Counted from the stretch's first letter, positions 1 to 13,750 are shown. The stretch is DNA of 13,750 bases from a virus (IMGVR_UViG_2698536576_000010:1-13750); one strand, 5' to 3'. Program-made: numbers and translations. Notes: a model not told the origin generated them from the letters alone.

Positions 1-114
1 ATTAATATATTCATCAGACCAGCCAGTATATTCATACGTAACTGCCTCATAATAAAAACAACGCATATTACCCGGTACTGTAGCCAGCCCATTTTCATCA
101 AAAACAGGTTTCAT
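1..114 (-). CDS. tfa: Tail fibre assembly protein (Tfa-like), N-terminal 38 codons only; gene runs off the window edge
   Basis: ATG at 114..112 overlaps the TAA of the upstream tail-fibre ORF (TAATG coupling). Translation [38 protein letters not shown] resembles the N-termini of phage tail-fibre chaperones. Partial. Confidence 0.55.
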   Translation of the reverse strand, partial: MKPVFDENGLATVPGNMRCFYYEAVTYEYTGWSDEYIN

Positions 115-935
115 TATGCAGCCCTCACAATATAATTAAAGGCGATGTTACGTGGACGGTTTTCATTAGCTGTTGGCACGACACGAGAGGCGTCGAATCC
201 AAGGTCATCGGTTTTGCCTATAGCAGTTGTGTTATTCGCCATTGTCGCTGATCGTGTTCCTGCATCGTAAAAAGCCCCTCTGATTGCATCAAAAGACATA
301 CCGATCCCGCCATCTGCGAATCCCTCAATATTTCTTATTGCATCCCCCTGTGAAGATAATAATTGTCGCCCGGCATCCACTCCACGTCCGTCATCCCAGC
401 CACGAATAAATTCACCGCGTAAATCAGGCAATTTATTTGTCGGGTAAACCTTTGCCAGTTCCGGGTATTCTTCAGCAGAAAAAGCCGCACCATTGCATTT
501 CAGCCAGCCTGTTGGCGGAGTGGCTGAAGGCCACGGAACAGGGACACCAACAGGTAATGCAGAGCCTTCTCCCAAACCAAGGTTTTCGAGAGCCGTTTGC
601 ACAGTGCCATCCGATTTGATATCGCCAAACGGATTCTTGCGGCTCAGGTATTCAACAGCAAACCCCGATCCCAGCAATTCAACAAAACCGGGCAGATCAC
701 CATTATCAAGCACATCCCGTTGCGTTTTATCACTTACAAACTGGGCCAGAGCTGCAGCAATAAAGCTGGCCTGCCGAATAACCTTATTGACTTGCGCACT
801 GGATGCTTTCCCTGCTGTAAATCCGGATATAAGCGCAGGCAACGCTTCCCATTCCTCCTGCGACATAACATTGGCATTTCGATCAGTTGCAAACGCTTTA
901 AAGTCATTTTTCGCCATCAGAGTAATACTCCCCAT
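114..935 (-). CDS. stf: Phage side-tail-fibre protein, C-terminal (receptor-binding) region, 273 aa
   Basis: C-terminal half ([16 protein letters not shown]...[19 protein letters not shown]...[12 protein letters not shown]) matches my recollection of the lambda Stf C-terminus and the tail-collar motif. Followed by a translationally coupled tfa. Weak SD at its ATG and an in-frame stop 12 nt upstream. Confidence 0.7.
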
Positions 936-1084
936 GCCCCTACATCAAAACCACTGATGAATTCGTTATCCATATCAAAACCAAAAAATTTAGAGCCTTC
1001 CGATGGAGTTTCCACCGAAGGTGTTTCAATGCCCCCCGCCCATACCCCGGCGGCTTTTACTGTTAGATACCGCCAATACCCGTT
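917..1084 (-). pseudogene. Start-less open frame (3' remnant of a deleted late-region gene?) overlapping the tail-fibre start
   Basis: The frame is open from about 1084 down to TGA at 919..917 ([55 protein letters not shown]) with no plausible start or SD. It begins about where ren stops resembling lambda ren. Confidence 0.3.
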
Positions 1085-1340
1085 TCATCGCGGCACTCTG
1101 GCGACACTCCTTAAAAATCAGGTTCGTGCTCATCTTTCCTTCCCGTTCTTCCCTGGTAGCAAACCGGTAATACACCGTTCGCCAGACCTTACCTTCGATA
1201 ACCAGAAGACCTGCCCGTGCCATTTTAGCCGCGGCCTGATTTATGCTGGTTACTGTTGCGCCTGTTAGCGCGGCAACGTCCGGCGCACAGAAGCTATTAT
1301 GCGTCCCCAGGTAATGAATAATTGCCTCTTTGCCCGTCAT
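1026..1340 (-). CDS. ren: Ren-like protein (lambda ren homologue) with a divergent, extended C-terminus
   Basis: MTGKEAIIHYLGTHNSFCAPDVAALTGATVTSINQAAAKMARAG... matches recalled lambda Ren. ATG overlaps the P stop. The last ~13 residues (SNSKSRRGMGGGH) and the length (104 aa, versus about 96 as I recall) differ from lambda. Confidence 0.8.
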   Translation of the reverse strand: MTGKEAIIHYLGTHNSFCAPDVAALTGATVTSINQAAAKMARAGLLVIEGKVWRTVYYRFATREEREGKMSTNLIFKECRQSAAMKRVLAVSNSKSRRGMGGGH

Positions 1341-2038
1341 ACACTTGCTCCTTTCAGTCCGAACTTAGCTTTGATTTCTGCGATCTTCGCCAGAGCCTGT
1401 GCACGATTTAGAGGTCTACCGCCCATGACAGGAAGTTGTTTTACTGGTTCAGGGATCGCCTCACCACGGTTAATTCTCGCAGTCATATGGACAAGCTCAT
1501 CTGCGGCCTTACGGCGTAATTCCGCATCAGTAAGCGCATTGGCCCGCATGTTCTGATACAGGTTGGTAACCAGCCAGTAGTGCGCGTTTGATTTCCACGG
1601 ATAAGACTCCGCATCCGGATACAGGCCTCGCTTCCGGCAATACTCGTAAACCATATCAACCAGCTCGCTGGCGTTTGGCAGCCCGGCGGTAACGGATGCT
1701 TCTTCCCGGCACCAGGCAACAAACTGCCCGGGTGATGGCAGGAATGGTCGATTCTGCCGACGGGCTACGCGCATTCCAGCGTTAACCTGTTCCATCGTGG
1801 TGATCCCATTTTCCCGGAAAGCCAGAACCCACTGGCGGCGGATTTCGTTCAGTTCATTCTGGTCACGGTTAGCCAAGCTCGCCGGGAAAGTTGCCAGTAA
1901 CTGGCTGAACACACCATTGATGATCTGCGCTACCTGTTGTACCTGCGGCTTTTCGTCGTACTGTTCCGGCATGTTGTTGGCGATCCGGCGCATCTGCTCA
2001 CGGTCAAAGTTAACCATCTGTGCGGCGATGTTTTTCAT
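1337..2038 (-). CDS. P: Replication protein P (DnaB helicase loader), 233 aa
   Basis: Full-length match to recalled lambda P (MKNIAAQMVNFDREQMRRIANNMPEQYDEKPQVQQ...). Start overlaps the O stop. Confidence 0.95.
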   Translation of the reverse strand: MKNIAAQMVNFDREQMRRIANNMPEQYDEKPQVQQVAQIINGVFSQLLATFPASLANRDQNELNEIRRQWVLAFRENGITTMEQVNAGMRVARRQNRPFLPSPGQFVAWCREEASVTAGLPNASELVDMVYEYCRKRGLYPDAESYPWKSNAHYWLVTNLYQNMRANALTDAELRRKAADELVHMTARINRGEAIPEPVKQLPVMGGRPLNRAQALAKIAEIKAKFGLKGASV

Positions 2039-2934
2039 AAATCCACCCCGTAAATCCAGTCAGTGTTTGTCAGGTCGAGTTTTGGTTTGCTGGCTGTCAC
2101 GCCTGCCTGTTGCTTGTTACGGTTGATTTCGAGCTGGGTCCACTTGTCGCGGAGTTTGGCCGGACTCAGCACGTTACCGGACCAGAAGTTGTCCTGGCAG
2201 GCCCAGCGGAAAAGCACACACATATCGCGGTGGTTACGTCCGTCACGTTCACGCATCAGGCGGATATCGTTAGCCCACCCAGCAAAATTCGGTTTTCTGG
2301 CTGATGGCGCGATGGTCTTCACCATGTCAAACATCCACTCTGCGGCGGTCAGGTCTTCTGCTGTTCCCCACTTGCTGCCGCTCTGAATTGCAGCATCCGG
2401 TTTAACCACAGAAAGATCGTTTTCTGGCTGGTCAGAGGATTCGCCAGAATTCTCGGACGAATAATCTTTTCTTTTTTCTTTTGTAATAGTGTCTTTTGTG
2501 TCTCCCTGTTTTGAGGGATAGCAATCCCCCAATTTGAGGGATGTTTTATCCCTCGTTTTAGGGGATTTTCCCTCGTTTTGAGGGATACACCATTCTGAGA
2601 TGTTTTTATTTGGTCCAAACATGCCGCCTTGCTGCTTGATAATATTCATTCTGACGAGTTCTAACTTGGCTTCATTGCACCGTTTGACAGGTAACTTTGT
2701 AATCTCGCTAAGTTGAGAATCGGTGATTCTGTCCATTGGTTTATTCCACCCATAGGTTTTACGCAGAATGGCAAGCAGCACTTTAAACTGTCGCTTGGTC
2801 AGATCTGCGCCCGAATAAGCCTCAAGCAGCATATTTGATAGTCTGGCGTAACCATCATCGAGATCTGCCACATTACGCTCCTGTCCGGCAAAGTTACCTC
2901 TGCCGAAGTTGAGTATTTTTGCTGTATTTGTCAT
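2035..2934 (-). CDS. O: Replication initiator protein O, 299 aa
   Basis: Matches recalled lambda O (MTNTAKILNFGRGNFAGQERNVADLDDGYARLSNMLLEAY...). Contains the ori iterons internally. Confidence 0.95.
   Translation of the reverse strand: MTNTAKILNFGRGNFAGQERNVADLDDGYARLSNMLLEAYSGADLTKRQFKVLLAILRKTYGWNKPMDRITDSQLSEITKLPVKRCNEAKLELVRMNIIKQQGGMFGPNKNISEWCIPQNEGKSPKTRDKTSLKLGDCYPSKQGDTKDTITKEKRKDYSSENSGESSDQPENDLSVVKPDAAIQSGSKWGTAEDLTAAEWMFDMVKTIAPSARKPNFAGWANDIRLMRERDGRNHRDMCVLFRWACQDNFWSGNVLSPAKLRDKWTQLEINRNKQQAGVTASKPKLDLTNTDWIYGVDL
2461..2590. repeat. Lambda-type replication origin: four about 18-19-bp iterons (2503..2586) plus an adjacent AT-rich tract (2461..2500) inside O
   Basis: Direct repeats of TCCCTC-N-GAGGGA type (tccctgttttgaggga, atcccccaatttgagggat, atccctcgttttaggggat, tccctcgttttgagggat), next to ataatcttttcttttttcttttgtaatag. 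Confidence 0.9.
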
Positions 2935-2966
2935 AATGACTCCTGTTGATAGATCCAGTAATGACC

Positions 2967-3260
2967 TCAGAACTCCATCTGGATTTGTTCAGAACGCTCG
3001 GTTGCCGCCGGGCGTTTTTTATTGGTGAGAATCGCAGCAACTTGTCGCGCCAATCGAACCATGTCGTCGTCAACGACCCCCCATTCAAGAACAGCAAGCA
3101 GCATTGAGAACTTTGGAATCCAGTCTCTCTTCCACCTGCTGATCTGCGACTTATCAACTCCCACAGCTTCCGCTGTCTTCTCAGTTCCAAGCATTGCGAT
3201 TTTGTTAAGCAACGCACTCTCGATTCGTAGAGCCTCGTTGCGTTTGTTTGCACGAACCAT
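2967..3260 (-). CDS. cII: Transcriptional activator CII, 97 aa
   Basis: MVRANKRNEALRIESALLNKIAMLGTEKTAEAVGVDKSQISRWKRDWIPKFSMLLAVLEWGVVDDD... matches recalled lambda CII. The upstream in-frame extension in the ORF track is rejected. Confidence 0.93.
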   Translation of the reverse strand: MVRANKRNEALRIESALLNKIAMLGTEKTAEAVGVDKSQISRWKRDWIPKFSMLLAVLEWGVVDDDMVRLARQVAAILTNKKRPAATERSEQIQMEF

Positions 3261-3339
3261 ATGTAAGTATTTCCTTAGATAACAATTGATTGAATGTATG
3301 CAAATAAATGCATACACCATAGGTGTGGTTTAATTTGAT

Positions 3340-3371
3340 GCCCTTTTTCAGGGCTGGAATGTGTAAGAGCG
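3340..3371 (-). promoter_or_regulatory. nutR (boxA 3371..3363, boxB hairpin 3354..3340 on the - strand)
   Basis: Minus-strand reading gives CGCTCTTAC (boxA), then GCCCTGAAAAAGGGC (boxB), between cro and cII, as in lambda. Confidence 0.8.
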
Positions 3372-3379
3372 GGAATGTC

Positions 3380-3595
3380 TTAAGCGGCTTTGTGTTCCGG
3401 AGGGAACACGTCATCAAGACTGACTTTTGCGCCTAACTTGTTTAGGCATGCAACAAGAGCGCGGCATGTTTTAAGGTCTGGGAAGCGACGACCAGATTCC
3501 CAATGCCCAATAGCTCCCTGTGTGCATCCAACCGCCTTAGCAAGTGTTGTTTGAGAGATATTCAGTGACTCTCGATATTTTCGTAGGTTGCTCAT
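3380..3595 (-). CDS. cro: Cro-like HTH repressor, 71 aa, non-lambda specificity
   Basis: Internal start MSNLRKYRESLNISQTTLAKAVGCTQGAIGHWESGRRF... with GGAGGG SD. Divergent from cI. The HTH recognition region TQGAIGHW parallels TQGGIGHW in the cI N-terminal domain. The longer ORF 3380..3835 is rejected. Confidence 0.8.
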   Translation of the reverse strand: MSNLRKYRESLNISQTTLAKAVGCTQGAIGHWESGRRFPDLKTCRALVACLNKLGAKVSLDDVFPPEHKAA

Positions 3596-3712
3596 ATGCC
3601 CTCCATAGTAACCATGAGACAATAATACGATATGTACTTTTGGAATGCAAACAAAAAATACATCTTGTGCATGGATGGTTTTAGTACAGAGCGTAATAAT
3701 AAGGATATGAAA
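3596..3712. promoter_or_regulatory. Immunity control region OR: pR on - strand (-35 TTGCAT 3650..3645, 17-bp spacer, -10 TATTAT 3627..3622), a putative weak pRM on + strand, and 2-3 putative operator dyads
   Basis: Consensus-like sigma70 elements sit at the right distance upstream of cro. Imperfect dyads of TAC-N5-GTA type lie at about 3621..3640, 3659..3669 and 3679..3698. Operator assignment is tentative. Confidence 0.55.
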
Positions 3713-4366
3713 ATGAAATGGTATGAACTGGCTAGATCCAGAATGAAAGAGCTCGGCATAACTCAAGAGAAGTTGGCTGAAGAGCTTGGTATGACGCAGG
3801 GTGGAATTGGTCACTGGTTGCGCGGATCTCGTCATCCATCTCTTGACGAGATTGGTGTGGTGTTTAAATACCTTGGTATTGATAACGTCTCATTCAACCA
3901 CGACGGTACATTTTCACCTGTTGGCGAATACTCATCTGCCCCCGTTAAAAAACAATATGAGTACCCTGTTTTTTCTCATGTTCAGGCCGGGATGTTCTCG
4001 CCTGAGCTTAGAACCTTTACCAAAGGTGATGCGGAGAGATGGGTCAGCACAACCAAAAAAGCCAGTGATTGTGCGTTTTGGCTTGAAGTTGAAGGTAATT
4101 CCATGACCGCACCAACAGGATCCAAGCCAAGCTTTCCTGACGGGATGTTAATTCTCGTTGACCCTGAGCAGGCTGTTGAGCCAGGTGATTTCTGCATAGC
4201 CAGACTTGGTGGTGACGAGTTTACCTTCAAGAAACTGATCAGGGATAGCGGTCAGGTGTTCCTACAACCACTAAACCCGCAATATCCAATGATCCCATGC
4301 AATGATAGCTGTTCCGTTGTAGGGAAAGTTATCGCCAGCCAGTGGCCAGAAGAGACGTTTGGGTGA
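3707..4366 (+). CDS. cI: CI-type prophage repressor: non-lambda N-terminal HTH domain fused to a lambda-like C-terminal dimerisation/autocleavage domain
   Basis: C-terminal ~135 aa ([21 protein letters not shown]...[51 protein letters not shown]) matches recalled lambda CI almost exactly. N-terminus [37 protein letters not shown] is different. Start is 3707 or 3713 (AAGGA SD favours 3713). Confidence 0.9.
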
Positions 4367-4391
4367 TAGGAATGGATGTTAAGGATTAAGA

Positions 4392-5438
4392 ATGTCAGCG
4401 ATTGATCAACCTGCGCAATATGTTATCAAGTCAGAAGACGACTTTGTATCTTTTGTAACAGAAATGCTCGGAAGGAAGGATATCGACTCAAGCGACTTCA
4501 CATTCCCTAACGTAGTTTTCAGTGGATGGCCAAAGATCAATATTAATGTAAAAGGCGATCCAAATAGATATAATTCTTCATTGACTGCGTCAATGCTTTT
4601 TGGTATGGCAGAGCTTACGCATGAAATACAAAAAGCATTTACGGTAGTCAGTCACAGCACTCATAATCGGCAGAAGCTAAAAGATGCAGAGAAAGGTTTG
4701 CTGGATATTGTCTACCGAATAAGCGAAGGCTCAAGCCAAGCGGATGGTGACTCAGATCCGATTGTAAACGGAGTGGTGACAGTGTTTACTCAAGCGATAG
4801 GCAAAATGACAGGAAGGCAAGCACTATGCGCCGTCGCCGCTATCGTCTTAGCTGCCAGCACGGTAGGCTATAAGTGGATCAATGAGTACTACGAAACACA
4901 GCGACATGACCAAGATTCTCAGGTGCAATTGGTGGAAAAAAGCACCAAAGCGGTAAACGAAGCACAAGACAATGTGCTCAAGTTGTTGATTAGCGGTCAA
5001 ACAAACATTAGCAGAGAGGTTCTGGCTCACGGCGAGGATGGTAAAAGCAAGTTGCTTAAAAAGCTTGCTCAAGACTCGTCAGTTGAGAGGGTAACAATTG
5101 GTCAGAGAGTGGTAAATAGAGAACAGTTGAATACCTTAAACCAAAGACAATCAATTGATCGAAAAAAGGAAACTAGAAGAGATAACTTTTATGTCACGGG
5201 CGTTCGTCGCTCGGGAGAAACAAATCAGGACATAAATATTGACGTCATAAGGGTTTCAAATGGTGAATCTTTCACCATAAAAACCTCAGCCGACATAACA
5301 TCTACTGATGAGCTTCTTGAGTTTTTGAATGCTGTAGCCAAAGAATCAACTGTTGAAATTTCATACCTAGAGGTTGTAGAAAATGGGCACATTTCAACAG
5401 GGCAATTGATAAATATATTCCCCAGCGAACCAGAGTGA
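4392..5438 (+). CDS. Hypothetical 348-aa protein in the cI-distal slot occupied by rexAB in lambda; one central hydrophobic segment; candidate exclusion/defence gene
   Basis: Long ORF with an AAGGA SD 25 bp after the cI stop, on the same strand. AT-rich codon usage by eye. Hydrophobic stretch ALCAVAAIVLAASTVGY. No family recognised. Intrinsic terminator immediately downstream. Confidence 0.7.
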   Translation: MSAIDQPAQYVIKSEDDFVSFVTEMLGRKDIDSSDFTFPNVVFSGWPKININVKGDPNRYNSSLTASMLFGMAELTHEIQKAFTVVSHSTHNRQKLKDAEKGLLDIVYRISEGSSQADGDSDPIVNGVVTVFTQAIGKMTGRQALCAVAAIVLAASTVGYKWINEYYETQRHDQDSQVQLVEKSTKAVNEAQDNVLKLLISGQTNISREVLAHGEDGKSKLLKKLAQDSSVERVTIGQRVVNREQLNTLNQRQSIDRKKETRRDNFYVTGVRRSGETNQDINIDVIRVSNGESFTIKTSADITSTDELLEFLNAVAKESTVEISYLEVVENGHISTGQLINIFPSEPE

Positions 5439-5447
5439 TGCACTCCA

Positions 5448-5477
5448 AACCCGGCCTCAGCGCCGGGTTTTCTTTTT
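5448..5477 (+). terminator. Rho-independent terminator ending the cI-plus-348-aa transcription unit
   Basis: aaCCCGGCctcagcGCCGGGtt stem-loop followed by TTTTCTTTTT. Confidence 0.75.
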
Positions 5478-5489
5478 CCAAAATATAAA

Positions 5490-5575
5490 CCCATTAAATA
5501 CAAAGCGTTATAAAAAACTAATTATATTTAGAACATTTTGTATTGACTCGATAAAGTACAAATCGTACTATTTAG
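5490..5575 (+). promoter_or_regulatory. pL promoter (-35 TTGACT 5543..5548, 17-bp spacer, -10 TACTAT 5566..5571) with putative OL operator dyads
   Basis: Near-consensus sigma70 promoter upstream of nutL and N. Dyad AGTAC-AAATC-GTACT (5555..5569) overlaps the spacer and -10; a second weaker dyad at about 5499..5509. Confidence 0.7.
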
Positions 5576-5611
5576 CCATCAGCAGGACGCACTGACCACC
5601 ATTGAAGGTGA

Positions 5612-5642
5612 GGCTCTTAAAAATTTAGCCCTGAAGAAGGGC
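5612..5642 (+). promoter_or_regulatory. nutL (boxA-like GGCTCTTA 5612..5619; boxB GCCCTGAAGAAGGGC 5628..5642)
   Basis: BoxB hairpin identical to my recollection of lambda nutL boxB; boxA with one change; located between pL and N. Confidence 0.85.
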
Positions 5643-5752
5643 AGCATTCAAAGCAGAAGGCTTTGAGTAGCGCGAAATGCAGCTGCAAGACAGCAACCGT
5701 GGAGATAAGCATCACGGCGCGTTACTCAAAGCTAACTGACAGGAGAATCCAG

Positions 5753-6085
5753 ATGGATGCACAAGCACGCCGCCGCGAACGTCGCGCAGAGAAACAGGCT
5801 CAATGGAAAGCAGCAAATCCCCTGTTGGTTGGGGTAAGCGCAAAACCAGTTAACCGCCCTATTCTCTCGCTGAATCGCAAACCGAAATCACGAGTAGAAA
5901 GCGCACTGAATCCGATAGACCTTACGGTGCTGGCTGAATACCACGAACAGATTGAAAGCAACCTGCAACGTATTGAGCGCAAGAATCAGCGCACATGGTA
6001 CAGCAAGCCACGCTGTGAAATGGGTGTGACTTGCTCAGGCCGCCAGAAGCAACGCGGAAAATCAATTCCAGCTTATTACGATTGA
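5753..6085 (+). CDS. N: Antitermination protein N, 110 aa
   Basis: MDAQARRRERRAEKQAQWKAANPLLVGVSAKPVNRPILSLNRKPKSRVESALNPIDLTVLAEYH... matches recalled lambda N, with an arginine-rich motif. AGGAG SD. The upstream extension to 5663 is rejected. Confidence 0.93.
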   Translation: MDAQARRRERRAEKQAQWKAANPLLVGVSAKPVNRPILSLNRKPKSRVESALNPIDLTVLAEYHEQIESNLQRIERKNQRTWYSKPRCEMGVTCSGRQKQRGKSIPAYYD

Positions 6086-6277
6086 GGTGAGCCATGCTCA
6101 AGAAAGTCAAACGCCGACTTTACAAAGAAGGTAGATATTCATGCCAAATGCGACACAACAAAATGGAGTGTCGATGATTGGTGTAACTGGATAGATAGAT
6201 ACGGAACTTGGTGGGATAAATAACAGGTAACTTAAGCGTATTTACTTTCGCAGCAAACAACTTATTTGAGGTGATAT

Positions 6278-6364
6278 ATGGAAGAAGAATTTGAAGAGTT
6301 CGAAGAGCATCCTCAGGATGTGATGGAACAATACCAGGACTATCCGTATGACTACGACTATTGA
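6278..6364 (+). CDS. Small acidic protein, 28 aa (lambda orf28-like)
   Basis: Strong SD (GAGGTGA) 6 nt before the ATG. MEEEFEEFEEHPQDVMEQYQDYPYDYDY. Overlaps the ral start, as I recall orf28 does in lambda. Below the ORF-track size cutoff. Confidence 0.45.
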   Translation: MEEEFEEFEEHPQDVMEQYQDYPYDYDY

Positions 6365-6527
6365 TAAAAATCAATGGTGTGGACAATTCAAGCGATGCAA
6401 TGGATGCAAGCTGCAATCGGAATGCATGGTTAAGCCTGAAGAAATGTTTCCTGTAATGGAAGATGGGAAATATGTCGATAAATGGGCAATACGAACGACG
6501 GCAATGATTGCCAGAGAACTTGGTTAA
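6348..6527 (+). CDS. ral: Restriction-alleviation protein Ral, 59 aa
   Basis: MTTTIDKNQWCGQFKRCNGCKLQSECMVKPEEMFPVMEDGKYVDKWAIRTTAMIARELG matches recalled lambda Ral except for a shorter C-terminus. Below the ORF-track size cutoff. Confidence 0.75.
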   Translation: MTTTIDKNQWCGQFKRCNGCKLQSECMVKPEEMFPVMEDGKYVDKWAIRTTAMIARELG

Positions 6528-6683
6528 CAGAACAACAAAGCTGCCTGATAGTGGCCTTTATTTTTGGCATAAATAACAGAATAAACACTGCACTGTGTAT
6601 TCATTCCAACGAGTGAATACACGGAGCAATGTCGCTCGTAACTAAACAGGAGCCGACTTGTTCTGATTATTGGAAATCTTCTT

Positions 6684-6711
6684 CGCCCTCCAGTGTGAGG
6701 GCGATTTTTTA
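6684..6711 (+). terminator. Rho-independent terminator between ral and ea10 (tL2-like)
   Basis: CGCCCTC-cagtgt-GAGGGCG hairpin followed by TTTTTT. Confidence 0.65.
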
Positions 6712-6730
6712 TCTATGAGGATATGAATAG

Positions 6731-7099
6731 ATGTCAAACATCAAAAAATACATCATTGATTACGACTGGAAAGCATCAATAGAAATTGAAATCGACCATG
6801 ACGTAATGACAGAGGAAAAACTTCACCAGATTAATAATTTCTGGTCAGACTCTGAATACCGACTCAATAAACACGGCTCTGTATTAAATGCTGTATTAAT
6901 CATGCTGGCGCAACATGCTCTGCTTATAGCAATTTCAAGCGACTTAAATGCATATGGTGTTGTGTGTGAGTTCGACTGGAATGATGGAAATGGTCAGGAA
7001 GGATGGCCTCCAATGGATGGTAGCGAAGGAATAAGAATTACCGATATCGATACATCAGGAATATTTGATTCAGATGATATGACTATCAAAGCCGCCTGA
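6731..7099 (+). CDS. ea10: Ea10-like early protein, 122 aa
   Basis: Position between ral and cIII and length match lambda ea10. Sequence MSNIKKYIIDYDWKASIEIEIDHD... is consistent with my recollection, unverified. Confidence 0.7.
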   Translation: MSNIKKYIIDYDWKASIEIEIDHDVMTEEKLHQINNFWSDSEYRLNKHGSVLNAVLIMLAQHALLIAISSDLNAYGVVCEFDWNDGNGQEGWPPMDGSEGIRITDIDTSGIFDSDDMTIKAA

Positions 7100-7171
7100 G
7101 CGCGGCGTTACCGCATACCAATAACGCTTCACTCGAGGCGTTTTTCGTTATGTATAAATAAGGAGCACACC

Positions 7172-7336
7172 ATGCAATATGCCATTGCAGGGTGGCCTGT
7201 TGCTGGCTGCCCTTCCGAATCTTTACTTGAACGAATCACCCGTAAATTACGTGACGGATGGAAACGCCTTATCGACATACTTAATCAGCCAGGAGTCCCA
7301 AAAAATGGATCAAACACTTATGGCTATCCAGACTAA
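7172..7336 (+). CDS. cIII: CIII (FtsH/HflB inhibitor), 54 aa
   Basis: [54 protein letters not shown] matches recalled lambda CIII. AAGGAG SD. Not in the ORF track because it is under 60 aa. Confidence 0.9.
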   Translation: MQYAIAGWPVAGCPSESLLERITRKLRDGWKRLIDILNQPGVPKNGSNTYGYPD

Positions 7337-7448
7337 ATTCACTATCGCCACTTTTATTGGCGATGAAAAGATGTTTCGTGAGGCCGTCGACGCTTATAAA
7401 AAATGGATATTAATACTGAAACTGAGATCAAGCAAAAGCATTCACTAA
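7305..7448 (+). CDS. kil: Kil (host cell-division inhibitor), 47 aa
   Basis: [47 protein letters not shown] matches recalled lambda Kil. Overlaps the cIII 3' end and the gam 5' end, as in lambda. Confidence 0.85.
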
Positions 7449-7819
7449 CCCCCTTTCCTGTTTTCCTAATCAGCCCGGCATTTCGCGGGCGATATTTTCA
7501 CAGCTATTTCAGGAGTTCAGCCATGAACGCTTATTACATTCAGGATCGTCTTGAGGCTCAGAGCTGGACGCGTCACTACCAGCAGATCGCCCGTGAAGAG
7601 AAAGAGGCAGAACTGGCAGACGACATGGAAAAAGGCCTGCCCCAGCACCTGTTTGAATCGCTATGCATCGATCATTTGCAACGCCACGGGGTCAGCAAAA
7701 AAGCCATTACCCGTGCGTTCGATGACGATGTTGAGTTTCAGGAGCGCATGGCAGAACACATCCGGTACATGGTTGAAACCATTGCTCACCACCAGGTTGA
7801 TATTGATTCAGAGGTATAA
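7403..7819 (+). CDS. gam: Gam (RecBCD inhibitor), 138 aa
   Basis: [55 protein letters not shown]... matches recalled lambda Gam. Confidence 0.95.
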
Positions 7820-7824
7820 AACGG

Positions 7825-8610
7825 ATGAGTACAGCACTCGCAACGCTGGCTGGGAAGCTGGCTGAACGTGTCGGCATGGATTCTGTCGACCCACAGGAAC
7901 TGATCACCACTCTTCGCCAGACGGCATTTAAAGGTGATGCCAGCGATGCGCAGTTCATCGCATTGTTGATCGTCGCCAACCAGTACGGCCTTAATCCGTG
8001 GACGAAAGAAATTTACGCCTTCCCTGACAAGCAGAACGGCATCGTTCCGGTGGTGGGCGTTGATGGCTGGTCCCGCATCATCAATGAAAACCAGCAGTTT
8101 GATGGCATGGACTTTGAGCAGGACAATGAATCCTGCACATGCCGGATTTACCGCAAAGACCGCAATCATCCGATCTGCGTTACCGAGTGGATGGATGAAT
8201 GCCGCCGCGAACCATTCAAAACCCGCGAAGGCAGAGAAATCACGGGGCCGTGGCAGTCGCATCCCAAACGGATGTTACGGCATAAAGCCATGATTCAGTG
8301 TGCCCGTCTCGCCTTCGGATTTGCTGGTATCTATGACAAGGATGAAGCCGAGCGCATTGTCGAAAATACCGCATACACTGCAGAACGTCAGCCGGAACGC
8401 GACATCACTCCGGTTAACGATGAAACCATGCAGGAGATTAACACTCTGCTGATTGCCCTGGATAAAACATGGGATGACGACTTATTGCCGCTCTGTTCCC
8501 AGATATTTCGCCGCGACATTCGCGCATCGTCAGAACTGACACAGGCCGAAGCAGTGAAAGCTCTTGGATTCCTGAAACAGAAAGCCACTGAGCAGAAGGT
8601 GGCAGCATGA
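7825..8610 (+). CDS. bet: Bet (Red-beta single-strand annealing recombinase), 261 aa
   Basis: [59 protein letters not shown]... matches recalled lambda Bet. Confidence 0.95.
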
Positions 8611-9287
8611 CACCGGACATTATACTGCAGCGTACCGGGATCGACGTGAGAGCTGTCGAACAGGGGGATGATGCATGGCACAAATTACGGCTCGGCGTCA
8701 TCACCGCTTCAGAAGTTCACAACGTGATAGCAAAGCCCCGATCAGGAAAGAAGTGGCCTGACATGAAAATGTCCTACTTCCACACCCTGCTGGCTGAGGT
8801 TTGCACCGGTGTGGCTCCGGAAGTTAACGCTAAAGCGCTGGCCTGGGGAAAACAGTACGAGAACGACGCCAGAACCCTGTTTGAGTTCACTTCCGGCGTA
8901 AATGTTATTGAATCCCCGATCATCTATCGCGACGAAAGTATGCGCACCGCCTGCTCTCCCGATGGTTTATGCAGTGACGGCAATGGCCTTGAGCTGAAAT
9001 GCCCGTTTACCTCCCGGGATTTCATGAAGTTCCGGCTCGGTGGTTTCGAGGCCATAAAGTCGGCTTACATGGCCCAGGTGCAGTACAGCATGTGGGTGAC
9101 GCGAAAAGATGCCTGGTACTTTGCCAACTATGACCCGCGTATGAAGCGTGAAGGCCTGCATTATGTCGTGGTTGAGCGGGATGAAAAGTACATGGCGAGT
9201 TTTGACGAGATGGTGCCGGAGTTCATCGAAAAAATGGACGAGGCACTGGCTGAAATTGGTTTTGCATTTGGGGAGCAATGGCGATGA
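8607..9287 (+). CDS. exo: Exo (lambda exonuclease, Red-alpha), 226 aa
   Basis: [62 protein letters not shown]... matches recalled lambda Exo. Start overlaps the bet stop. Confidence 0.95.
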
Positions 9288-9445
9288 AGCATCCTCACGA
9301 TAATATCCGGGTAGGCACGATCACTTTCGTCTACTCCGTTACAAAGCGAGGCTGGGTATTTCCCGGCCTTTCTGTTATCCGAAATCCCCTGAAAGCACAG
9401 CGGCTGGCTGAGGAGATAAATAATAAACGGGGGCTGTATGACTGA
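9284..9445 (+). CDS. Small early protein, 53 aa (lambda orf60a-like)
   Basis: ATG overlaps the exo stop (ATGA). [53 protein letters not shown]. Position and start resemble the ORF after exo in lambda. Under the ORF-track size cutoff. Confidence 0.5.
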
Positions 9446-9995
9446 TTTCACCGGAAGCAATACTCCTGCCGAACATCGCGACAGCTGGCGCACACCACCA
9501 GAGATTTTTGCTGCGCTTAATGCAGAGTTCGTTTTTCAACTTGATGCTGCCGCCAGCGAAAAAAACCGACTATGTCGGCTTTTTATCTCACAGGAGCAGA
9601 ACACATTAACCACTTCATGGCCTGAAGCAATGGGATATGCCTCTGGTTATGTCTGGTTGAATCCACCATACAGCAATATTTCCCCTTTTGTGAAAAAGGC
9701 AGCCACTGAAAACAAATTCAGTAGTGTGGGATGTGTAATGTTATTGCCTGCTGACACATCTGTCGGATGGTTTCATGAAGCGATACAAACCGCCAGTGAG
9801 GTCAGATTCATCACGGCAGGACGACTGGCATTTATTAACCCACTCACTGAGAAACCCGTCAGTGGAAATAATAAAGGCTCGATGCTCATTATCTGGCACC
9901 CATACCCCCGTACACACTGCCACTTTACGACCGTTGATCGTGGAGAGTTGATGGCGTTCGGCTCAAGGATTCTTGCCCGTCGGGAGGCTGCATGA
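9438..9995 (+). CDS. Phage-type DNA N6-adenine methyltransferase (Dam family), 185 aa, orphan
   Basis: Catalytic NPPY motif (WLNPPYSNISPFVKKA), size and overall pattern typical of phage Dam-family N6A methyltransferases. No adjacent restriction endonuclease. Confidence 0.8.
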   Translation: MTDFTGSNTPAEHRDSWRTPPEIFAALNAEFVFQLDAAASEKNRLCRLFISQEQNTLTTSWPEAMGYASGYVWLNPPYSNISPFVKKAATENKFSSVGCVMLLPADTSVGWFHEAIQTASEVRFITAGRLAFINPLTEKPVSGNNKGSMLIIWHPYPRTHCHFTTVDRGELMAFGSRILARREAA

Positions 9996-10075
9996 CAACC
10001 ACGGAATGCATTTTTCTGGCAGCGGGCTTCATATTCTGTGTGCTTATGCTTGCCGACATGGGACTTGTTCAATGA
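9992..10075 (+). CDS. Putative 27-aa hydrophobic (single-helix) membrane peptide
   Basis: GGGAGG SD 5 nt upstream. MTTTECIFLAAGFIFCVLMLADMGLVQ. ATGA overlaps at both ends link it to the methyltransferase stop and the next ORF start. Confidence 0.35.
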   Translation: MTTTECIFLAAGFIFCVLMLADMGLVQ

Positions 10076-10287
10076 CACCTCAGCAGGAAAACGCCCTTCG
10101 CAGCATTGCCCGTCAGGCTAATTCTGAAATCAAAAAAGCCAGACAGCAGTTTCCGGATAAAAACGTCGATGACATTTGCCGTAGCGTACTAAAGAAGCAC
10201 CGCGAAACGGTAACGCTGATGGGATTCACACCGACTCATTTAAGCCTGGCGATCGGCATGTTAAACGGCGTCTTTAAGGAACGGTGA
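10072..10287 (+). CDS. Hypothetical early protein, 71 aa
   Basis: MTPQQENALRSIARQANSEIKKARQQFPDKNVDDICRSVLKKHRETVTLMGFTPTHLSLAIGMLNGVFKER. The ORF-track entry 9973..10287 is trimmed to the internal ATG that does not overlap the methyltransferase. Confidence 0.55.
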   Translation: MTPQQENALRSIARQANSEIKKARQQFPDKNVDDICRSVLKKHRETVTLMGFTPTHLSLAIGMLNGVFKER

Positions 10288-10289
10288 AC

Positions 10290-10379
10290 ATGAAAAGCAA
10301 AATCATCAGGGAGCTACAGGCTCCTTTTTTATTGTTCGCATTCATCCTCAAGCGTATTAACCAACAATTCAGGGATTAA
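10290..10379 (+). CDS. Possible small ORF, 29 aa
   Basis: MKSKIIRELQAPFLLFAFILKRINQQFRD. Tightly packed between neighbours, with no strong SD. Speculative. Confidence 0.25.
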   Translation: MKSKIIRELQAPFLLFAFILKRINQQFRD

Positions 10380-10385
10380 TGGAAG

Positions 10386-10604
10386 ATGGCAGACATCATT
10401 GATTCAGCATCAGAAATCGAAGAATTACAGCGCAATACAGCAATAAAAATGCGTCGTCTGAACCACCAGGCTATATCTGCCACTCATTGTTGTAAGTGTG
10501 GCGATCCCATAGATGAACGAAGACGCCTGGCCGTTCAGGGTTGTCGGACTTGTGCAAGTTGCCAGGAGGAGATCGAACTTAAGAACAAACAATGGGGATT
10601 GTGA
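10386..10604 (+). CDS. TraR/DksA-family C4 zinc-finger protein, 72 aa
   Basis: CxxC-(17)-CxxC motif (CCKCGDPIDERRRLAVQGCRTCASC) at the C-terminus of a short helical protein, typical of phage TraR-like RNA-polymerase-binding factors. Confidence 0.75.
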   Translation: MADIIDSASEIEELQRNTAIKMRRLNHQAISATHCCKCGDPIDERRRLAVQGCRTCASCQEEIELKNKQWGL

Positions 10605-10651
10605 TGGCCTCAAAGCAGCAAATTTCAACATCGTCCAACTGAGGTGTAAAA

Positions 10652-10930
10652 ATGTTCAGAATCATTTTTCCTAACACCTGGTACGTCGACCACCACGGCA
10701 CTCCCTGCAAAATCCTGCGTTCTACCCACAACAAAGTTCACTACATCCGAAAAGGCAGAACATGTATCGCCAGCATGTTCCGCTTTAATCATGACTTTGA
10801 ACCTGTGAATAAAGCTGATGCAGATCGGATAGCAGAAGAGATCGAAACGGCAGAACACATTAAGAAGTTACGTGACATGCGTTCAAAAAGCAGAGGTAAC
10901 CATGGAATCATACAGCCTCACACTCGATGA
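10652..10930 (+). CDS. Hypothetical early protein, 92 aa
   Basis: GAGGTG SD 5 nt upstream of the ATG. Overlaps the xis start. No family recognised. Confidence 0.55.
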   Translation: MFRIIFPNTWYVDHHGTPCKILRSTHNKVHYIRKGRTCIASMFRFNHDFEPVNKADADRIAEEIETAEHIKKLRDMRSKSRGNHGIIQPHTR

Positions 10931-11252
10931 GGCCTGTCAGTTTCTTAAGATATCCAGACCAACCGCCACCAACTGGATACGAACAGGCCGCCTACAGGCA
11001 ACACGCAAAGACCCCACTAAACCAAAATCTCCTTACCTCACAACGCGACAAGCCTGCATTGCGGCGCTTCAGTCTCCGCTGCATACTATCAAGGTGAGCG
11101 CGGGTGATGGCATAACAGAGGAAAGAAAATGTCACTCTTCCGCAGAAGTGAAATATGGTACGCCAGTTTCACATTGCCGAACGGTAAAAGATTTAAACAG
11201 TCTCTTGGAACAAAGGACAAAAGGCAGGCGACAGAGCTCCATGACAAGCTAA
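10902..11252 (+). CDS. xis: Excisionase (P22-type Xis), 116 aa
   Basis: [38 protein letters not shown]... is an HTH excisionase directly upstream of and overlapping int, with the length of P22 Xis. The ORF-track entry is trimmed to the ATG at 10902. Confidence 0.8.
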
Positions 11253-12292
11253 AGGCTGAAGCATGGCGGGTCAGCAAACTTGGTGAAATACCTGATATGA
11301 CGTTCGAGGAGGCGTGTATCAGGTGGCTCGAAGAGAAAGCACATAAAAAATCACTGGACGATGACAAAAGCCGGATCGGATTCTGGCTTCAACATTTCGC
11401 AGGAATGCAACTAAGAGACATTACTGAATCAAAAATTTATTCAGCAATGCAGAAAATGACGAACCGGCGTCATGAGGAAAACTGGAAACTCAGGGCAGAA
11501 GCATGCAGAAAAAAAGGGAAACCTGTTCCAGAATACACGCCAAAACCAGCGTCCGTTGCAACGAAGGCTACGCATCTTTCATTTATAAAGGCCCTACTAA
11601 GAGCCGCAGAGCGTGAATGGAAAATGCTGGATAAGGCACCAATTATTAAAGTGCCTCAACCAAAGAATAAACGGATCCGCTGGCTGGAGCCCCATGAAGC
11701 ACAAAGGCTGATTGATGAATGTCCGGAGCCATTAAAGTCTGTTGTTGAATTTGCACTGGCAACAGGTTTAAGACGCTCGAACATCATCAACCTTGAATGG
11801 CAACAAATAGATATGCAGCGCCGGGTGGCATGGATAAACCCGGAAGAGAGTAAATCAAACCGCGCAATCGGCGTTGCGCTGAATGATACTGCATGTCGCG
11901 TTTTGAAAAAACAAATCGGGAATCATCACCGTTGGGTATTTGTGTACAAGGAAAGCTGTACCAAACCAGACGGAACGAAAGCGCCAACAGTAAGGAAGAT
12001 GCGGTATGACGCAAACACAGCCTGGAAAGCGGCGCTGAGACGAGCTGGTATTGATGATTTCAGATTTCACGACTTGAGACACACCTGGGCAAGTTGGCTG
12101 GTTCAAGCCGGAGTCCCGTTGTCAGTGTTACAGGAAATGGGTGGCTGGGAGTCTATCGAAATGGTTCGTCGATATGCTCACCTCGCGCCTAATCACCTTA
12201 CCGAACACGCACGGCAAATAGACTCGATTCTGAACCCATCGGTCCCAAATTTGTCCCAGTCAAAAAATAAGGAAGGTACTAATGATGTGTAA
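11129..12292 (+). CDS. int: Tyrosine integrase (P22-type Int), 387 aa
   Basis: [46 protein letters not shown]... with the C-terminal catalytic region [39 protein letters not shown] (R...HxxR...Y). Matches recalled P22 Int, which targets thrW. Confidence 0.95.
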
Positions 12293-12306
12293 CTTATTGA
12301 TTTAAA

Positions 12307-12382
12307 TGGTGCCGATAATAGGAGTCGAACCTACGACCTTCGCATTACGAATGCGCTGCTCTACCAACTGAGCTATATCGGC
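12307..12382 (-). tRNA. thrW: tRNA-Thr (anticodon CGU), thrW-type; phage attachment site at its 3' end
   Basis: Minus-strand sequence GCCGATATAGCTCAGTTGGTAGAGCAGCGCATTCGTAATGCGAAGGTCGTAGGTTCGACTCCTATTATCGGCACCA is 76 nt, folds as a cloverleaf with anticodon loop TTCGTAA and T-loop GGTTCGA, and ends in CCA. Confidence 0.92.
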
Positions 12383-12496: not shown

Positions 12497-13750
12497 TTAC
12501 GCACGAATGGTGTAATCACCAATGCCGATCCACTTGTAAGTGGTCAGTGCTTCCAGCCCCATTGGGCCACGCGCGTGGAGTTTTTGTGTGCTTACCGCCA
12601 CTTCCGCACCCAGACCAAACTGGCCGCCGTCGGTAAAACGCGTAGAGGCGTTAACGTAAACAGCGGACGAATCCACTTCGTTAACAAAACGCTGGGCGTT
12701 GCGCATATCGCGGGTCAGGATCGCATCGGAGTGTTGTGTGCCGTGTTCACGAATATGGGCGATGGCATCGTCAAGATCGCTGACGATTTTGACGTTCAAA
12801 TCTAATGACAGAAACTCATCGTCATACTCTTCGGCTTTAACAGCAACCACCTTCGCAGGGCCTGCCTGCAACTGCGCCAGTGCAGCTGCATCTGCGTGTA
12901 ATGTCACGCCGCTTTCCGCCATTTGTTTGCTTAATGCGGGCAGGAAGCTATCGGCGATGTTTTTATTCACCAGCAACGTTTCAACCGTATTACATGTGCT
13001 CGGACGCTGAGTTTTCGCGTTGACGATCACTTTTAATGCTTCAGCGATCTCTACACTTTCATCAACGTAAATATGGCATACGCCTATACCACCTGTGATC
13101 ACCGGGATTGTCGACTGTTCACGGCACAGTTTATGCAAACCAGCGCCACCACGCGGGATCAGCATGTCGATGTATTTATCCATACGCAGCATTTCACTGA
13201 CCAGCGCACGGTCAGGATTATCAATCGCCTGCACGGCACCCGCCGGTAAGCCGCAGGATTTCAGGGCGTCCTGAATCACCGCCACCGTTGCAGCGTTAGT
13301 GCGACACGTTTCTTTGCCACCGCGCAGGATCACCGCATTACCGGTTTTCAGGCACAGCGAAGCGACATCAACCGTCACGTTCGGGCGCGCTTCATAAATC
13401 ACGCCAATAACCCCCAGCGGTACGCGACGACGCTCAAGACGCAGGCCGCTGTCCAGTACGCTGCCATCGATTACCTGCCCCACCGGATCGGCGAGGTTAC
13501 ACACCTGGCGCACATCATCGGCAATGCCTTTCAGCCGTGCGGGCGTCAGTGCCAGACGGTCAAGCATCGCTTCGCCAAGGCCATTGGCACGCGCGTCAGC
13601 AACATCCTGGGCGTTAGCGTTGAGGATGATTTCGCTTTGTGCTTCCAGTTCATCGGCGATTTTTTCCAGCACGCGATTTTTTTCGCGGCTGGAGAGTTGC
13701 GCTAATTTATACGAGGCTTGCTTCGCGGCAATGCCCATTTGTTCCAGCAT
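12497..13750 (-). CDS. proA: Gamma-glutamyl phosphate reductase (host gene), 417 aa, complete
   Basis: Full-length match to recalled enterobacterial ProA ([58 protein letters not shown]...). ATG at 13750..13748. Confidence 0.95.

What the first reader, a model, noticed from the sequence alone, without database searches (positions are those of the whole stretch)
917..1100. Probable deletion joint: ren abuts a tail-fibre module, with nin, Q, lysis and morphogenesis genes missing
In lambdoid genomes ren is followed by the nin region, Q, lysis, terminase, head and tail genes (tens of kb) before stf and tfa. Here ren is followed within about 90 bp by a tail-fibre C-terminal ORF and tfa on the same strand. 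The ren product stops matching my recollection of lambda Ren after ...AAMKRVLAV (about nt 1067) and ends in an unrelated tail, SNSKSRRGMGGGH. From about 1084 a different frame is open with no start codon and runs into the tail-fibre ATG; it looks like the 3' stub of a deleted gene. Together these point to a large internal deletion with a novel joint at roughly 1065..1087, leaving a defective prophage that keeps immunity, replication, Red, int/xis and a tail-fibre cassette.
Basis: partly seen in the sequence, partly recalled or inferred. Interest (0 to 1): 0.5.

Follow-up and report, generated by a model that had tools for sequence, protein, structure and literature searches.

The report
Deletion joint in a decayed prophage
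A 24.8-kb internal deletion in an E. coli prophage inserted in the thrW tRNA gene next to proA fused the end of the lambda-type ren gene to the tail end of a baseplate gene, removing all lysis, head and tail genes; this is ordinary prophage decay.

Summary
Lambda-type homology (98.4%) stops at window 1067, which is 17 nt before the ren stop. Positions 1-1071 match the far end of the late operon of contractile-tailed lambdoid prophages. The two homologies overlap by 5 bp (ATACC, 1067-1071).

An apparently intact prophage with a near-identical integrase at the same proA-thrW site (E. coli Eco_23-2667) carries ren and the baseplate gene 24,760 bp apart, in the same order and orientation. The missing stretch holds 36 genes and 2 tRNAs: nin, Q, lysis, terminase, head, sheath, tube and baseplate.

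The identical joint occurs in independent assemblies, which rules out an assembly artefact. Two relatives have the 47-bp att core on the far side of the joint. In one of them the near copy is also in view, so the joint lies between both att copies. None has late genes nearby.

Three corrections:
- The late module is not lambda stf/tfa.
- The tail-fibre gene is complete (267 aa), not a C-terminal fragment.
- The start-less stub is the last 51 codons of a DUF2612 baseplate-wedge gene.

O157:H7 Sp1 and K-12 e14 are known close analogues. Interest is low.

The parts
1067..1071 (.). Deletion joint: the 5-bp microhomology ATACC (GGTAT on the coding strand) shared by both parental sequences
   Evidence: Three-way alignments of the window with lambda or an intact prophage (early side) and with intact late modules. 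BLAST end points are 1067 and 1071.
1026..1340 (-). ren' fusion ORF: Ren residues 1-91 plus 13 foreign residues read out of frame from the baseplate-gene stub
   Evidence: ORF list. Comparison with the intact 96-aa Ren of L010. The exact protein occurs on 60 contigs.
917..1071 (-). 3' stub (51 codons plus stop, no start codon) of a DUF2612 / baseplate-wedge gene
   Evidence: 99-100% identical to the 3' end of full 226-aa DUF2612 genes in E2348/69 and Eco_23-2667. The full gene hits PF11041 at 3.8e-47. The stub alone hits nothing. Translation.
114..917 (-). Complete tail-fibre gene (267 aa). The N-terminal constant part is encoded at about 584-917. The C-terminal variable part lies inside the invertible segment.
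   Evidence: Collar domain PF07484, 8e-15. PHROG tail-fibre families. Same length as the homologue in NZ_CP038859.1. A 267-aa gene is called in L016 and L019-L021.
565..597 (.). Pin/Gin/Hin-type crossover site (TTCTCCCAAACCAAGGTTTTCGAGAG, 572-597; 19-nt inverted-repeat arm at 565-583) at the constant/variable boundary of the fibre gene
   Evidence: Window 1-583 matches NZ_LR882057.1 in inverted orientation and 565-12352 in direct orientation. A 19-nt inverted repeat flanks 1725 bp there. Window 565-644 is 100% identical to e14 stfP. Likeness to hix/gix sites is from memory.
1..114 (-). First 38 codons of a tail-fibre assembly gene (tfa), cut by the contig end
   Evidence: Homologous tfa of 197 aa follows the fibre gene in L002 and L016. 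Window position 1 equals the end of contig CXWT01000045.1.
1337..2934 (-). Intact lambda-type replication genes P (1337-2038) and O (2035-2934), upstream of ren' in the same operon
   Evidence: 98.4% identical to lambda 39520-40553. ORFs of 233 and 299 aa. Phage_lambda_P and Phage_rep_O in identical loci.
11129..12292 (+). Integrase (387 aa) at the prophage end next to thrW
   Evidence: PF00589, 9.5e-48. The same integrase lies next to proA in 959 complete E. coli genomes.
12306..12382 (-). tRNA-Thr(CGU) thrW (12307-12382) with the 47-bp att core (12306-12352). proA follows at 12497-13750.
   Evidence: ARAGORN. The 47-bp core recurs at the far end of the intact prophage L010, at the end of the O157 element, and on the far side of the joint in carriers L012 and L014.

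Best explanation
The window holds the thrW-proximal two-thirds of a cryptic lambdoid prophage. A single internal deletion of about 24.8 kb produced it from an about 43-kb temperate phage with lambda-type early genes and contractile-tail late genes.

The deletion joined a point 17 nt before the ren stop codon to a point 155 nt before the end of the DUF2612 baseplate-wedge gene, at a 5-bp microhomology (GGTAT).

I infer short-homology illegitimate (RecA-independent) recombination, for example replication slippage or misjoining of breaks.

The deletion removed ninB-ninG, a phosphatase gene, Q, two tRNAs, the lysis cassette, terminase, portal, head, sheath, tube, tape-measure and baseplate genes.

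Inferred consequences:
- The element cannot lyse the cell, package DNA or build particles.
- It keeps cI/cro immunity, N, Red, O/P/ori and int, so it may still be derepressed, excise and replicate.
- tR2 and the Q-dependent late promoter region are gone. The fibre and tfa genes now lie directly downstream of the pR early operon and would be transcribed with it.
For: Shown:
- Break points and microhomology.
- An apparently intact collinear reference prophage at the same att site, with near-identical int, Red genes, O/P/ren and late module. The window aligns at 98.6-99.6% on both sides of a 24,760-bp gap containing 36 CDS and 2 tRNAs.
- A second reference, the PSS-11 prophage, is 99.5% identical over window 1067-9440 and has intact ren followed by ninB.
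- A lambdoid prophage in E2348/69 carries nin-Q-lysis followed by the same late module, 100% identical over 576-1071.
- The identical joint occurs in independent assemblies.
- The 47-bp att core lies on the far side of the joint in carriers L012 and L014, and in L014 also on the near side. No late genes lie in between.
- O157:H7 Sp1 at the same locus has a different, independent P::DUF2612 joint. The same two modules were therefore adjacent parts of one prophage there too.
- No terminator-like hairpin lies on the coding strand between ren' and the fibre gene.
- The gene order pR-cro-O-P-ren-tR2 is given in PMC3640518.
Against: - The reference prophage is not the literal parent. Its immunity region differs (92.6% or no match over about 3380-6580), so the deletion size is an estimate for a mosaic relative.
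- The window ends inside the invertible segment. The far end of this particular copy cannot be seen, and the context comes from relatives that are 99.9% identical.
- The mechanism of joining is inferred from 5 bp of microhomology only.
- Excision, replication and read-through transcription are untested.
Confidence: 0.93

Rival explanations
1. The joint arose by ectopic recombination between two different prophages, a lambda-like one at thrW and a separate contractile-tailed one elsewhere. It would then be a chromosomal rearrangement rather than an internal deletion of one prophage.
For: The best single-module matches to the two sides come from prophages at other sites: att-lambda in PSS-11 for the early side, and argW in E2348/69 or yfhH/yfhL in strain 357900 for the late side. 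The carrier NZ_LR882057.1 is rearranged around the element by IS3 copies.
Against: One prophage at thrW carries both modules in the right order and orientation. The 47-bp att core lies on the far side of the joint in carriers L012 and L014, and in L014 also on the near side, which places the joint inside one att-bounded element. O157 Sp1 shows the same pair of modules at the same site with a different joint.
Confidence: 0.04
2. The arrangement is a functional, conserved configuration. It could be a natural mosaic boundary of a viable phage, or a satellite-like element that borrows a helper's virion and keeps only its own fibres.
For: The fusion is widespread enough to be on 60 contigs. The fibre and tfa genes are intact in most carriers. 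Fibre cassettes of cryptic prophages can have host-level roles (PMC12529663).
Against: - Both genes at the joint are truncated.
- No phage record spans it.
- Only 1 of 5426 complete E. coli genomes has it.
- No packaging signal or capsid-redirecting genes are present.
- Carriers show further decay: pin split by IS3, and a second deletion from Ral into P.
- In the O157 analogue the fibre genes are frameshifted.
Confidence: 0.02
3. The joint is an assembly chimera at a contig end.
For: The window starts at a contig end that lies inside a repeated, invertible segment.
Against: The joint lies 1 kb inside the contig. It is 100% identical in a closed chromosome and in several other NCBI and ENA assemblies made independently.
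Confidence: 0.005

Closest known systems
Sp1 of E. coli O157:H7 Sakai (seen here in strain 472), described as a 'highly degraded lambdoid prophage' (Asadulghani et al. 2009, PMC2669165)
   Same: Same chromosomal site (proA-thrW). Same kind of integrase remnant. Lambda-type cI-cro-cII-O region fused to a start-less DUF2612 stub. The stub is followed by fibre, tfa, tfa', fibre' and pinE. No lysis, packaging or morphogenesis genes.
   Different: The joint is independent. P is cut after about 21 codons and the DUF2612 stub is about 105 nt longer, with no clear microhomology. Sp1 has also lost Red and N and has an IS-truncated int, a frameshifted O and frameshifted fibre genes. The window element keeps all of these intact.
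Cryptic prophage e14 of E. coli K-12
   Same: A lambdoid remnant with a chimeric replication/terminase ORF (ymfN) marking an internal deletion. It retains a baseplate-fibre-tfa-tfa'-fibre'-pinE end with an invertible P segment. Window 565-644, which includes the crossover site, is 100% identical to e14 stfP.
   Different: e14 is integrated in icd and has different early genes. Its baseplate remnant is DUF2313-type, not DUF2612. It has several joints, and its pinE is intact.
Apparently intact thrW prophage of E. coli Eco_23-2667 (NZ_CM176497.1), and related induced phages such as vB_EcoM-606R2
   Same: The Eco_23-2667 prophage has the same att site and near-identical int, Red genes, O/P/ren and late-operon end. 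It is the undeleted form of the element. vB_EcoM-606R2 shares the DUF2612-fibre region at 96.9%.
   Different: Eco_23-2667 differs in its immunity region. vB_EcoM-606R2 has a non-lambda early region with its own DNA polymerase; the corresponding prophage in strain 357900 also encodes a VapE-domain protein.
Lambda nin5 deletion (laboratory deletion between P and Q)
   Same: Its left end lies in or next to ren. It removes tR2, so downstream genes become directly coupled to pR transcription. The gene order pR-cro-O-P-ren-tR2 is from PMC3640518. The nin5 end points are from memory.
   Different: nin5 removes only about 2.8 kb and leaves a viable phage. The deletion here is about 24.8 kb and also removes Q, lysis and all structural genes except the fibre cassette.

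Membership tests
Cryptic (defective) lambdoid prophage made by internal deletion | Sits at a phage attachment site and is bounded by att core repeats | tested here: met
   The 47-bp core lies in thrW at 12306-12352. The core is also found on the far side of the joint in carriers L012 and L014, and L014 has both copies in view. The far end of this very copy lies beyond the contig end.
Cryptic (defective) lambdoid prophage made by internal deletion | Remaining genes are collinear with an intact relative on both sides of a single gap | tested here: met
   The window aligns to L010 at 13311-15273 and 40029-40535, leaving a gap of 24,760 bp.
Cryptic (defective) lambdoid prophage made by internal deletion | Genes at the joint are truncated or fused | tested here: met
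   Ren loses its last 5 residues and gains 13 foreign ones. DUF2612 is reduced to 51 of 226 codons with no start.
Cryptic (defective) lambdoid prophage made by internal deletion | Essential lysis, packaging and morphogenesis genes are absent from the element | tested here: met
   No such genes lie between the att copies or within 10 kb in carriers of the identical joint. NZ_LR882057.1 has a single copy of the fibre/DUF2612 region. This could not be read directly for the source contig, which ends at window position 1.
Cryptic (defective) lambdoid prophage made by internal deletion | Cannot produce particles on induction | not testable with these tools
   Needs mitomycin C induction, electron microscopy or plaque assay, and attP/attB PCR.
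Din-family (Pin/Gin/Cin/Hin) invertible tail-fibre segment | Inverted crossover sites at the constant/variable boundary of the fibre gene | tested here: met
   19-nt inverted-repeat arms lie 1725 bp apart in NZ_LR882057.1. The window holds one arm at 565-583. The second arm lies beyond the contig end.
Din-family (Pin/Gin/Cin/Hin) invertible tail-fibre segment | Both orientations are found among otherwise identical copies | tested here: met
   Window 1-583 is inverted in NZ_LR882057.1. Of 10 carrier loci, 4 have the 267-aa fibre form and 6 the 210-aa form.
Din-family (Pin/Gin/Cin/Hin) invertible tail-fibre segment | An adjacent serine invertase gene | tested here: inconclusive
   The intact prophage has pinE. 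In carriers of this joint where the region was read, the Resolvase gene is in fragments, and an IS3-family transposase gene lies between the fragments in L014 and L015. Inversion would then need an invertase supplied in trans, as shown for PinQ on e14 (PMC12529663). The gene lies outside the window.
Phage satellite (PICI / P4-like) | Own replication module plus genes that hijack a helper's capsid or packaging, without being a deletion derivative of a full phage | tested here: not met
   All genes are 98-99% identical to those of full lambdoid phages and collinear with them. No capsid-size or packaging-redirection genes were found in the ORF or Pfam tables.

The most novel reading that the evidence does not exclude
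The deletion did more than inactivate the phage. By removing tR2, Q and the late promoter region, it put a Pin-invertible fibre/tfa cassette under the SOS-inducible pR early operon. This arrangement would then be kept because the fibre proteins serve the host, for example by masking a receptor against other phages, as reported for StfE2 of e14 (PMC12529663). The repeated, independent retention of the same cassette in O157 Sp1, in e14 and here would reflect selection rather than position at the prophage end.
Probability: 0.06. Interest if true: 0.45.

Novelty: new member of a known kind. Interest (0 to 1): 0.1.

Why it matters
It matters little beyond annotation. The result gives an exact, base-level account of how one common E. 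coli cryptic prophage arose: break points, microhomology, the undeleted form, and the genes lost.

It shows that the 104-aa 'hypothetical protein' or 'protein ren' and the start-less ORF next to it are deletion scars rather than genes.

It adds one more case, alongside O157 Sp1 and K-12 e14, of lambdoid remnants that keep immunity, recombination and replication genes together with an invertible fibre cassette. That recurring pattern could be examined for selection. The evidence here (terminal position of the cassette, IS-disrupted pin, frameshifted fibres in Sp1) fits neutral decay.

Tried and rejected
- An exact-pattern scan of the 34-nt joint in the GTDB species-representative genomes found nothing. 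The joint is strain-level variation within E. coli, and it was found instead through the exact Ren' protein.
- Pfam on the 55-aa stub, on the 38-aa tfa fragment and on Ren' gave no hits. The stub was identified only through the full-length homologue.
- NCBIfam gave nothing for the fibre, DUF2612, Ren' or the 348-aa ORF.
- The first late-module match, the prophage of strain 357900 (like vB_EcoM-606R2), was rejected as parent because its early region is not lambda-like; it encodes a DNA polymerase and, in strain 357900, a VapE-domain protein.
- Strain 13TMH22, with 100% identical int-thrW-proA, was checked as a possible close relative. It carries a different prophage with the same integrase.
- IS-mediated deletion was considered. 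No IS sequence or IS end lies at the joint. The IS3 copies in carriers lie in pin and beyond.
- Homologous recombination between repeats was considered. The parental sequences share only ATACC, plus scattered matches in the 20 bp to one side.
- A terminator between ren' and the fibre gene was looked for. The only hairpin there (1036-1053) is on the non-coding strand.

Full report
**What the window is**

Read on the minus strand from right to left, the window contains proA (12497-13750), tRNA-Thr thrW (12307-12382) and a lambdoid prophage that begins at thrW. The prophage genes, in order, are:
- a 387-aa tyrosine integrase (11129-12292; PF00589);
- an HTH excisionase-like gene, a Dam-type methylase, and exo, bet, gam, kil and cIII;
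- a DUF2528 gene, ral and N;
- a 348-aa orphan ORF;
- a cI-type repressor (HTH plus Peptidase_S24);
- cro, cII, O, P and a ren-like ORF.

The 1.1 kb to the left of ren holds a start-less ORF, a tail-fibre gene and the first 38 codons of a tfa gene. All are on the same strand as ren.

**Checking the observation**

Megablast of window 1-2100 against 50,697 phage records gave 197 hits. Every early-side match begins at window 1067. Lambda itself matches 1067-2100 at 98.4%, corresponding to lambda 40553-39520, and lambda ren ends at 40570. The homology therefore stops 17 nt before the ren stop.

The window's Ren' is 104 aa. It is identical to an intact 96-aa Ren through residue 91 (...KRVLAV), then reads SNSKSRRGMGGGH instead of YGVKR.

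Against 5,426 complete E. coli genomes, window 1-1071 matches a different class of sequence at 97.7-100%. That class is the end of the late operon of prophages annotated 'baseplate J – DUF2612 – phage tail protein – tail fiber assembly protein'.

The two homologies overlap by five bases, ATACC at 1067-1071. Beyond these five bases the parental sequences share only scattered matches.

From 1071 down to its TGA at 919-917 it encodes the last 51 residues of a 226-aa DUF2612 protein. The full-length homologue hits PF11041 at 3.8e-47, with the domain covering residues 4-185, so the stub retains almost none of it.

The fibre gene starts at the ATG at 917-915, which overlaps that TGA by one base. It is a complete 267-aa gene with a Collar domain, the same length as its homologues, and not a C-terminal fragment.

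**The undeleted form**

959 complete E. coli genomes have this integrase next to proA. One of them is strain Eco_23-2667. It also carries the DUF2612/fibre region about 36 kb away on the same strand.

Its annotation shows an apparently intact about 43-kb prophage between two copies of the 47-bp att core. The gene order is:
- int, Red genes, N, cI, cro, cII, O, P, ren (96 aa);
- ninB, ninE, ninF, ninG, a phosphatase gene, Q, two tRNAs;
- holin, lysozyme, Rz-like lysis gene;
- terS, TerL, portal, head genes;
- sheath (DUF3383), tube (DUF3277), tape measure, baseplate genes, baseplate J;
- DUF2612, fibre, tfa, tfa', fibre', pinE.

The window aligns to it at 98.6% (window 1067-3029 to locus 15273-13311) and at 99.6% (window 565-1071 to locus 40535-40029). 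The gap is 24,760 bp and holds 36 complete CDS and 2 tRNA genes.

Two further references agree:
- The att-lambda prophage of strain PSS-11 is 99.5% identical to window 1067-9440 and has intact ren followed by ninB.
- A lambdoid prophage of E2348/69 has nin-Q-lysis followed by the same late module, 100% identical to window 576-1071.

**Is the joint real, and is the element bounded?**

The 161 bp around the joint are 100% identical in the closed chromosome NZ_LR882057.1, a Norwegian broiler isolate. That is the only one of 5,426 complete genomes with the joint.

A look-up of the exact Ren' fusion protein found it on 60 contigs and in 171 index blocks, all from E. coli. Ten loci were fetched, and all carry the identical joint.

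Window 1-11340 is 100% identical to the end of contig CXWT01000045.1 of assembly GCA_001268905.1. The window therefore starts at a contig end, and its own left flank cannot be read.

The carriers that extend further show, after the fibre cassette:
- fragments of a resolvase (pin) gene, separated in L014 and L015 by an IS3-family transposase gene;
- a few unrelated ORFs;
- in L012 and L014, a copy of the 47-bp att core about 6.6-7 kb beyond the joint.

None has nin, Q, lysis or structural genes. L014 has both att copies in view, with the joint between them. This makes the event an internal deletion of one att-bounded prophage.

The size adds up. About 11.3 kb plus about 6.6 kb is close to 43.3 kb minus 24.8 kb.

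Some carriers (L014, L017, L018) have a second deletion on top, from ral into P, which shows continuing decay.

**An independent parallel**

At the same proA-thrW site, O157:H7 (strain 472, the Sp1 region) has a lambda-type cI-cro-cII-O region fused to a DUF2612 stub. The stub is followed by fibre, tfa, tfa', fibre' and pinE.

Its joint is different. P is cut after about 21 codons and the DUF2612 stub is about 105 nt longer. Neither element can be derived from the other by deletion, so the same kind of prophage lost its middle twice.

Asadulghani et al. describe Sp1 as a highly degraded lambdoid prophage. It lacks all morphogenesis, packaging and lysis functions, and its remaining early genes are still induced by mitomycin C (PMC2669165).

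K-12 e14 is a third analogue. It has a chimeric replication/terminase ORF and retains baseplate remnants plus the fibre/pinE end. Window 565-644 is 100% identical to e14 stfP.

**Mechanism and consequences**

Shown:
- The break points.
- The 5-bp microhomology, with a chance probability of about 0.005 under random joining (my calculation).
- The absence of IS ends at the joint.

Inferred:
- A single short-homology, RecA-independent illegitimate recombination event produced the joint.
- The element cannot lyse, package or assemble particles.
- It keeps an intact repressor, N, Red genes, O/P with the origin region, and int. It may therefore still be derepressed, excise and replicate.
- tR2 lies just after ren (gene order pR-cro-O-P-ren-tR2, PMC3640518), and Q is gone. 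No terminator-like hairpin lies on the coding strand between ren' and the fibre gene. The fibre and tfa genes are therefore probably co-transcribed with the early operon.

**Rivals**

- Recombination between two separate prophages is disfavoured by the single-prophage reference at the same site, by the att core on the far side of the joint in two carriers (with the near-side copy also in view in L014), and by the O157 parallel.
- A functional mosaic or satellite reading is disfavoured for several reasons. Both genes at the joint are truncated and no phage record spans the joint. The joint is rare among complete genomes, carriers show further decay, and the fibre genes of Sp1 are frameshifted.
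- An assembly artefact is excluded by the independent assemblies.

**Verdict**

- The late module is contractile-tail lambdoid, not lambda stf/tfa.
- The fibre gene is complete.
- The stub is a DUF2612 baseplate-wedge gene.

This is ordinary prophage decay with close, published analogues. Novelty is limited to this particular joint, which I did not find described in the few literature searches I ran. Interest is low.

Noticed in passing
window 565-597 (and 1-583): There is a Pin/Gin/Hin-type crossover site inside the fibre gene. The segment to its left is inverted in NZ_LR882057.1 and in 6 of 10 otherwise identical loci, giving a 210-aa instead of a 267-aa fibre. In the carriers where the local pin gene was read it is in fragments, with an IS3-family transposase gene between them in L014 and L015. 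Inversion is therefore probably driven by an invertase encoded elsewhere.
   Followed up: partly
window 1: Window 1-11340 is 100% identical to the terminal 11.3 kb of contig CXWT01000045.1 (GCA_001268905.1). The contig, and so the window, ends inside the invertible segment, probably because mixed orientations or repeats broke the assembly.
   Followed up: yes
window 4392-5438 (+): A 348-aa ORF lies immediately downstream of cI, in the position of lambda rexAB. It has no Pfam, PADLOC or NCBIfam match, only phrog_6191 (unknown function). It is conserved with the same immunity region in PSS-11 and NZ_LR882057.1. It is a candidate lysogen-expressed exclusion or defence gene.
   Followed up: partly
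L007 14329-14640 (E. coli O157:H7 strain 472, Sp1 region): An independent deletion joint at the same thrW locus links P (cut after about 21 codons) to a longer DUF2612 stub. RefSeq annotates the pieces as 'phage replication protein, incomplete'.
   Followed up: yes
L014 9501-9693; L017 and L018 9419-10001: Some carriers of the same joint have a second deletion that removes N, the 348-aa ORF, cI, cro, cII, O and the 5' part of P, from ral to the P C-terminus.
   Followed up: partly
L013 12051-20315 (ENA metagenome contig k141_29595): Here the second crossover site lies inside a P2-type fibre gene (504 aa). That gene is followed by P2-like baseplate, tail, lysis and capsid genes. This is either a chimeric metagenome assembly through the shared invertible segment, or invertase-mediated exchange between two prophages.
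   Followed up: no
L001 26797-28281; L017 1904-3229: In NZ_LR882057.1 and one metagenome contig, the att core next to int is followed by a second integrase and a CP4-type island (cbtA/yeeU and others) instead of the 5' part of thrW and proA. This indicates tandem occupancy of thrW or a rearrangement. In NZ_LR882057.1, IS3 copies join the pin end of the element to a truncated rclR.
   Followed up: no
phage record MW057783.1 (H50): A record named 'Campylobacter phage CJLB-4' (48,361 bp) matches lambda-type O-P-ren at the same 98.4% and at nearly the same coordinates as lambda. It is probably lambda DNA under a wrong name.
   Followed up: no
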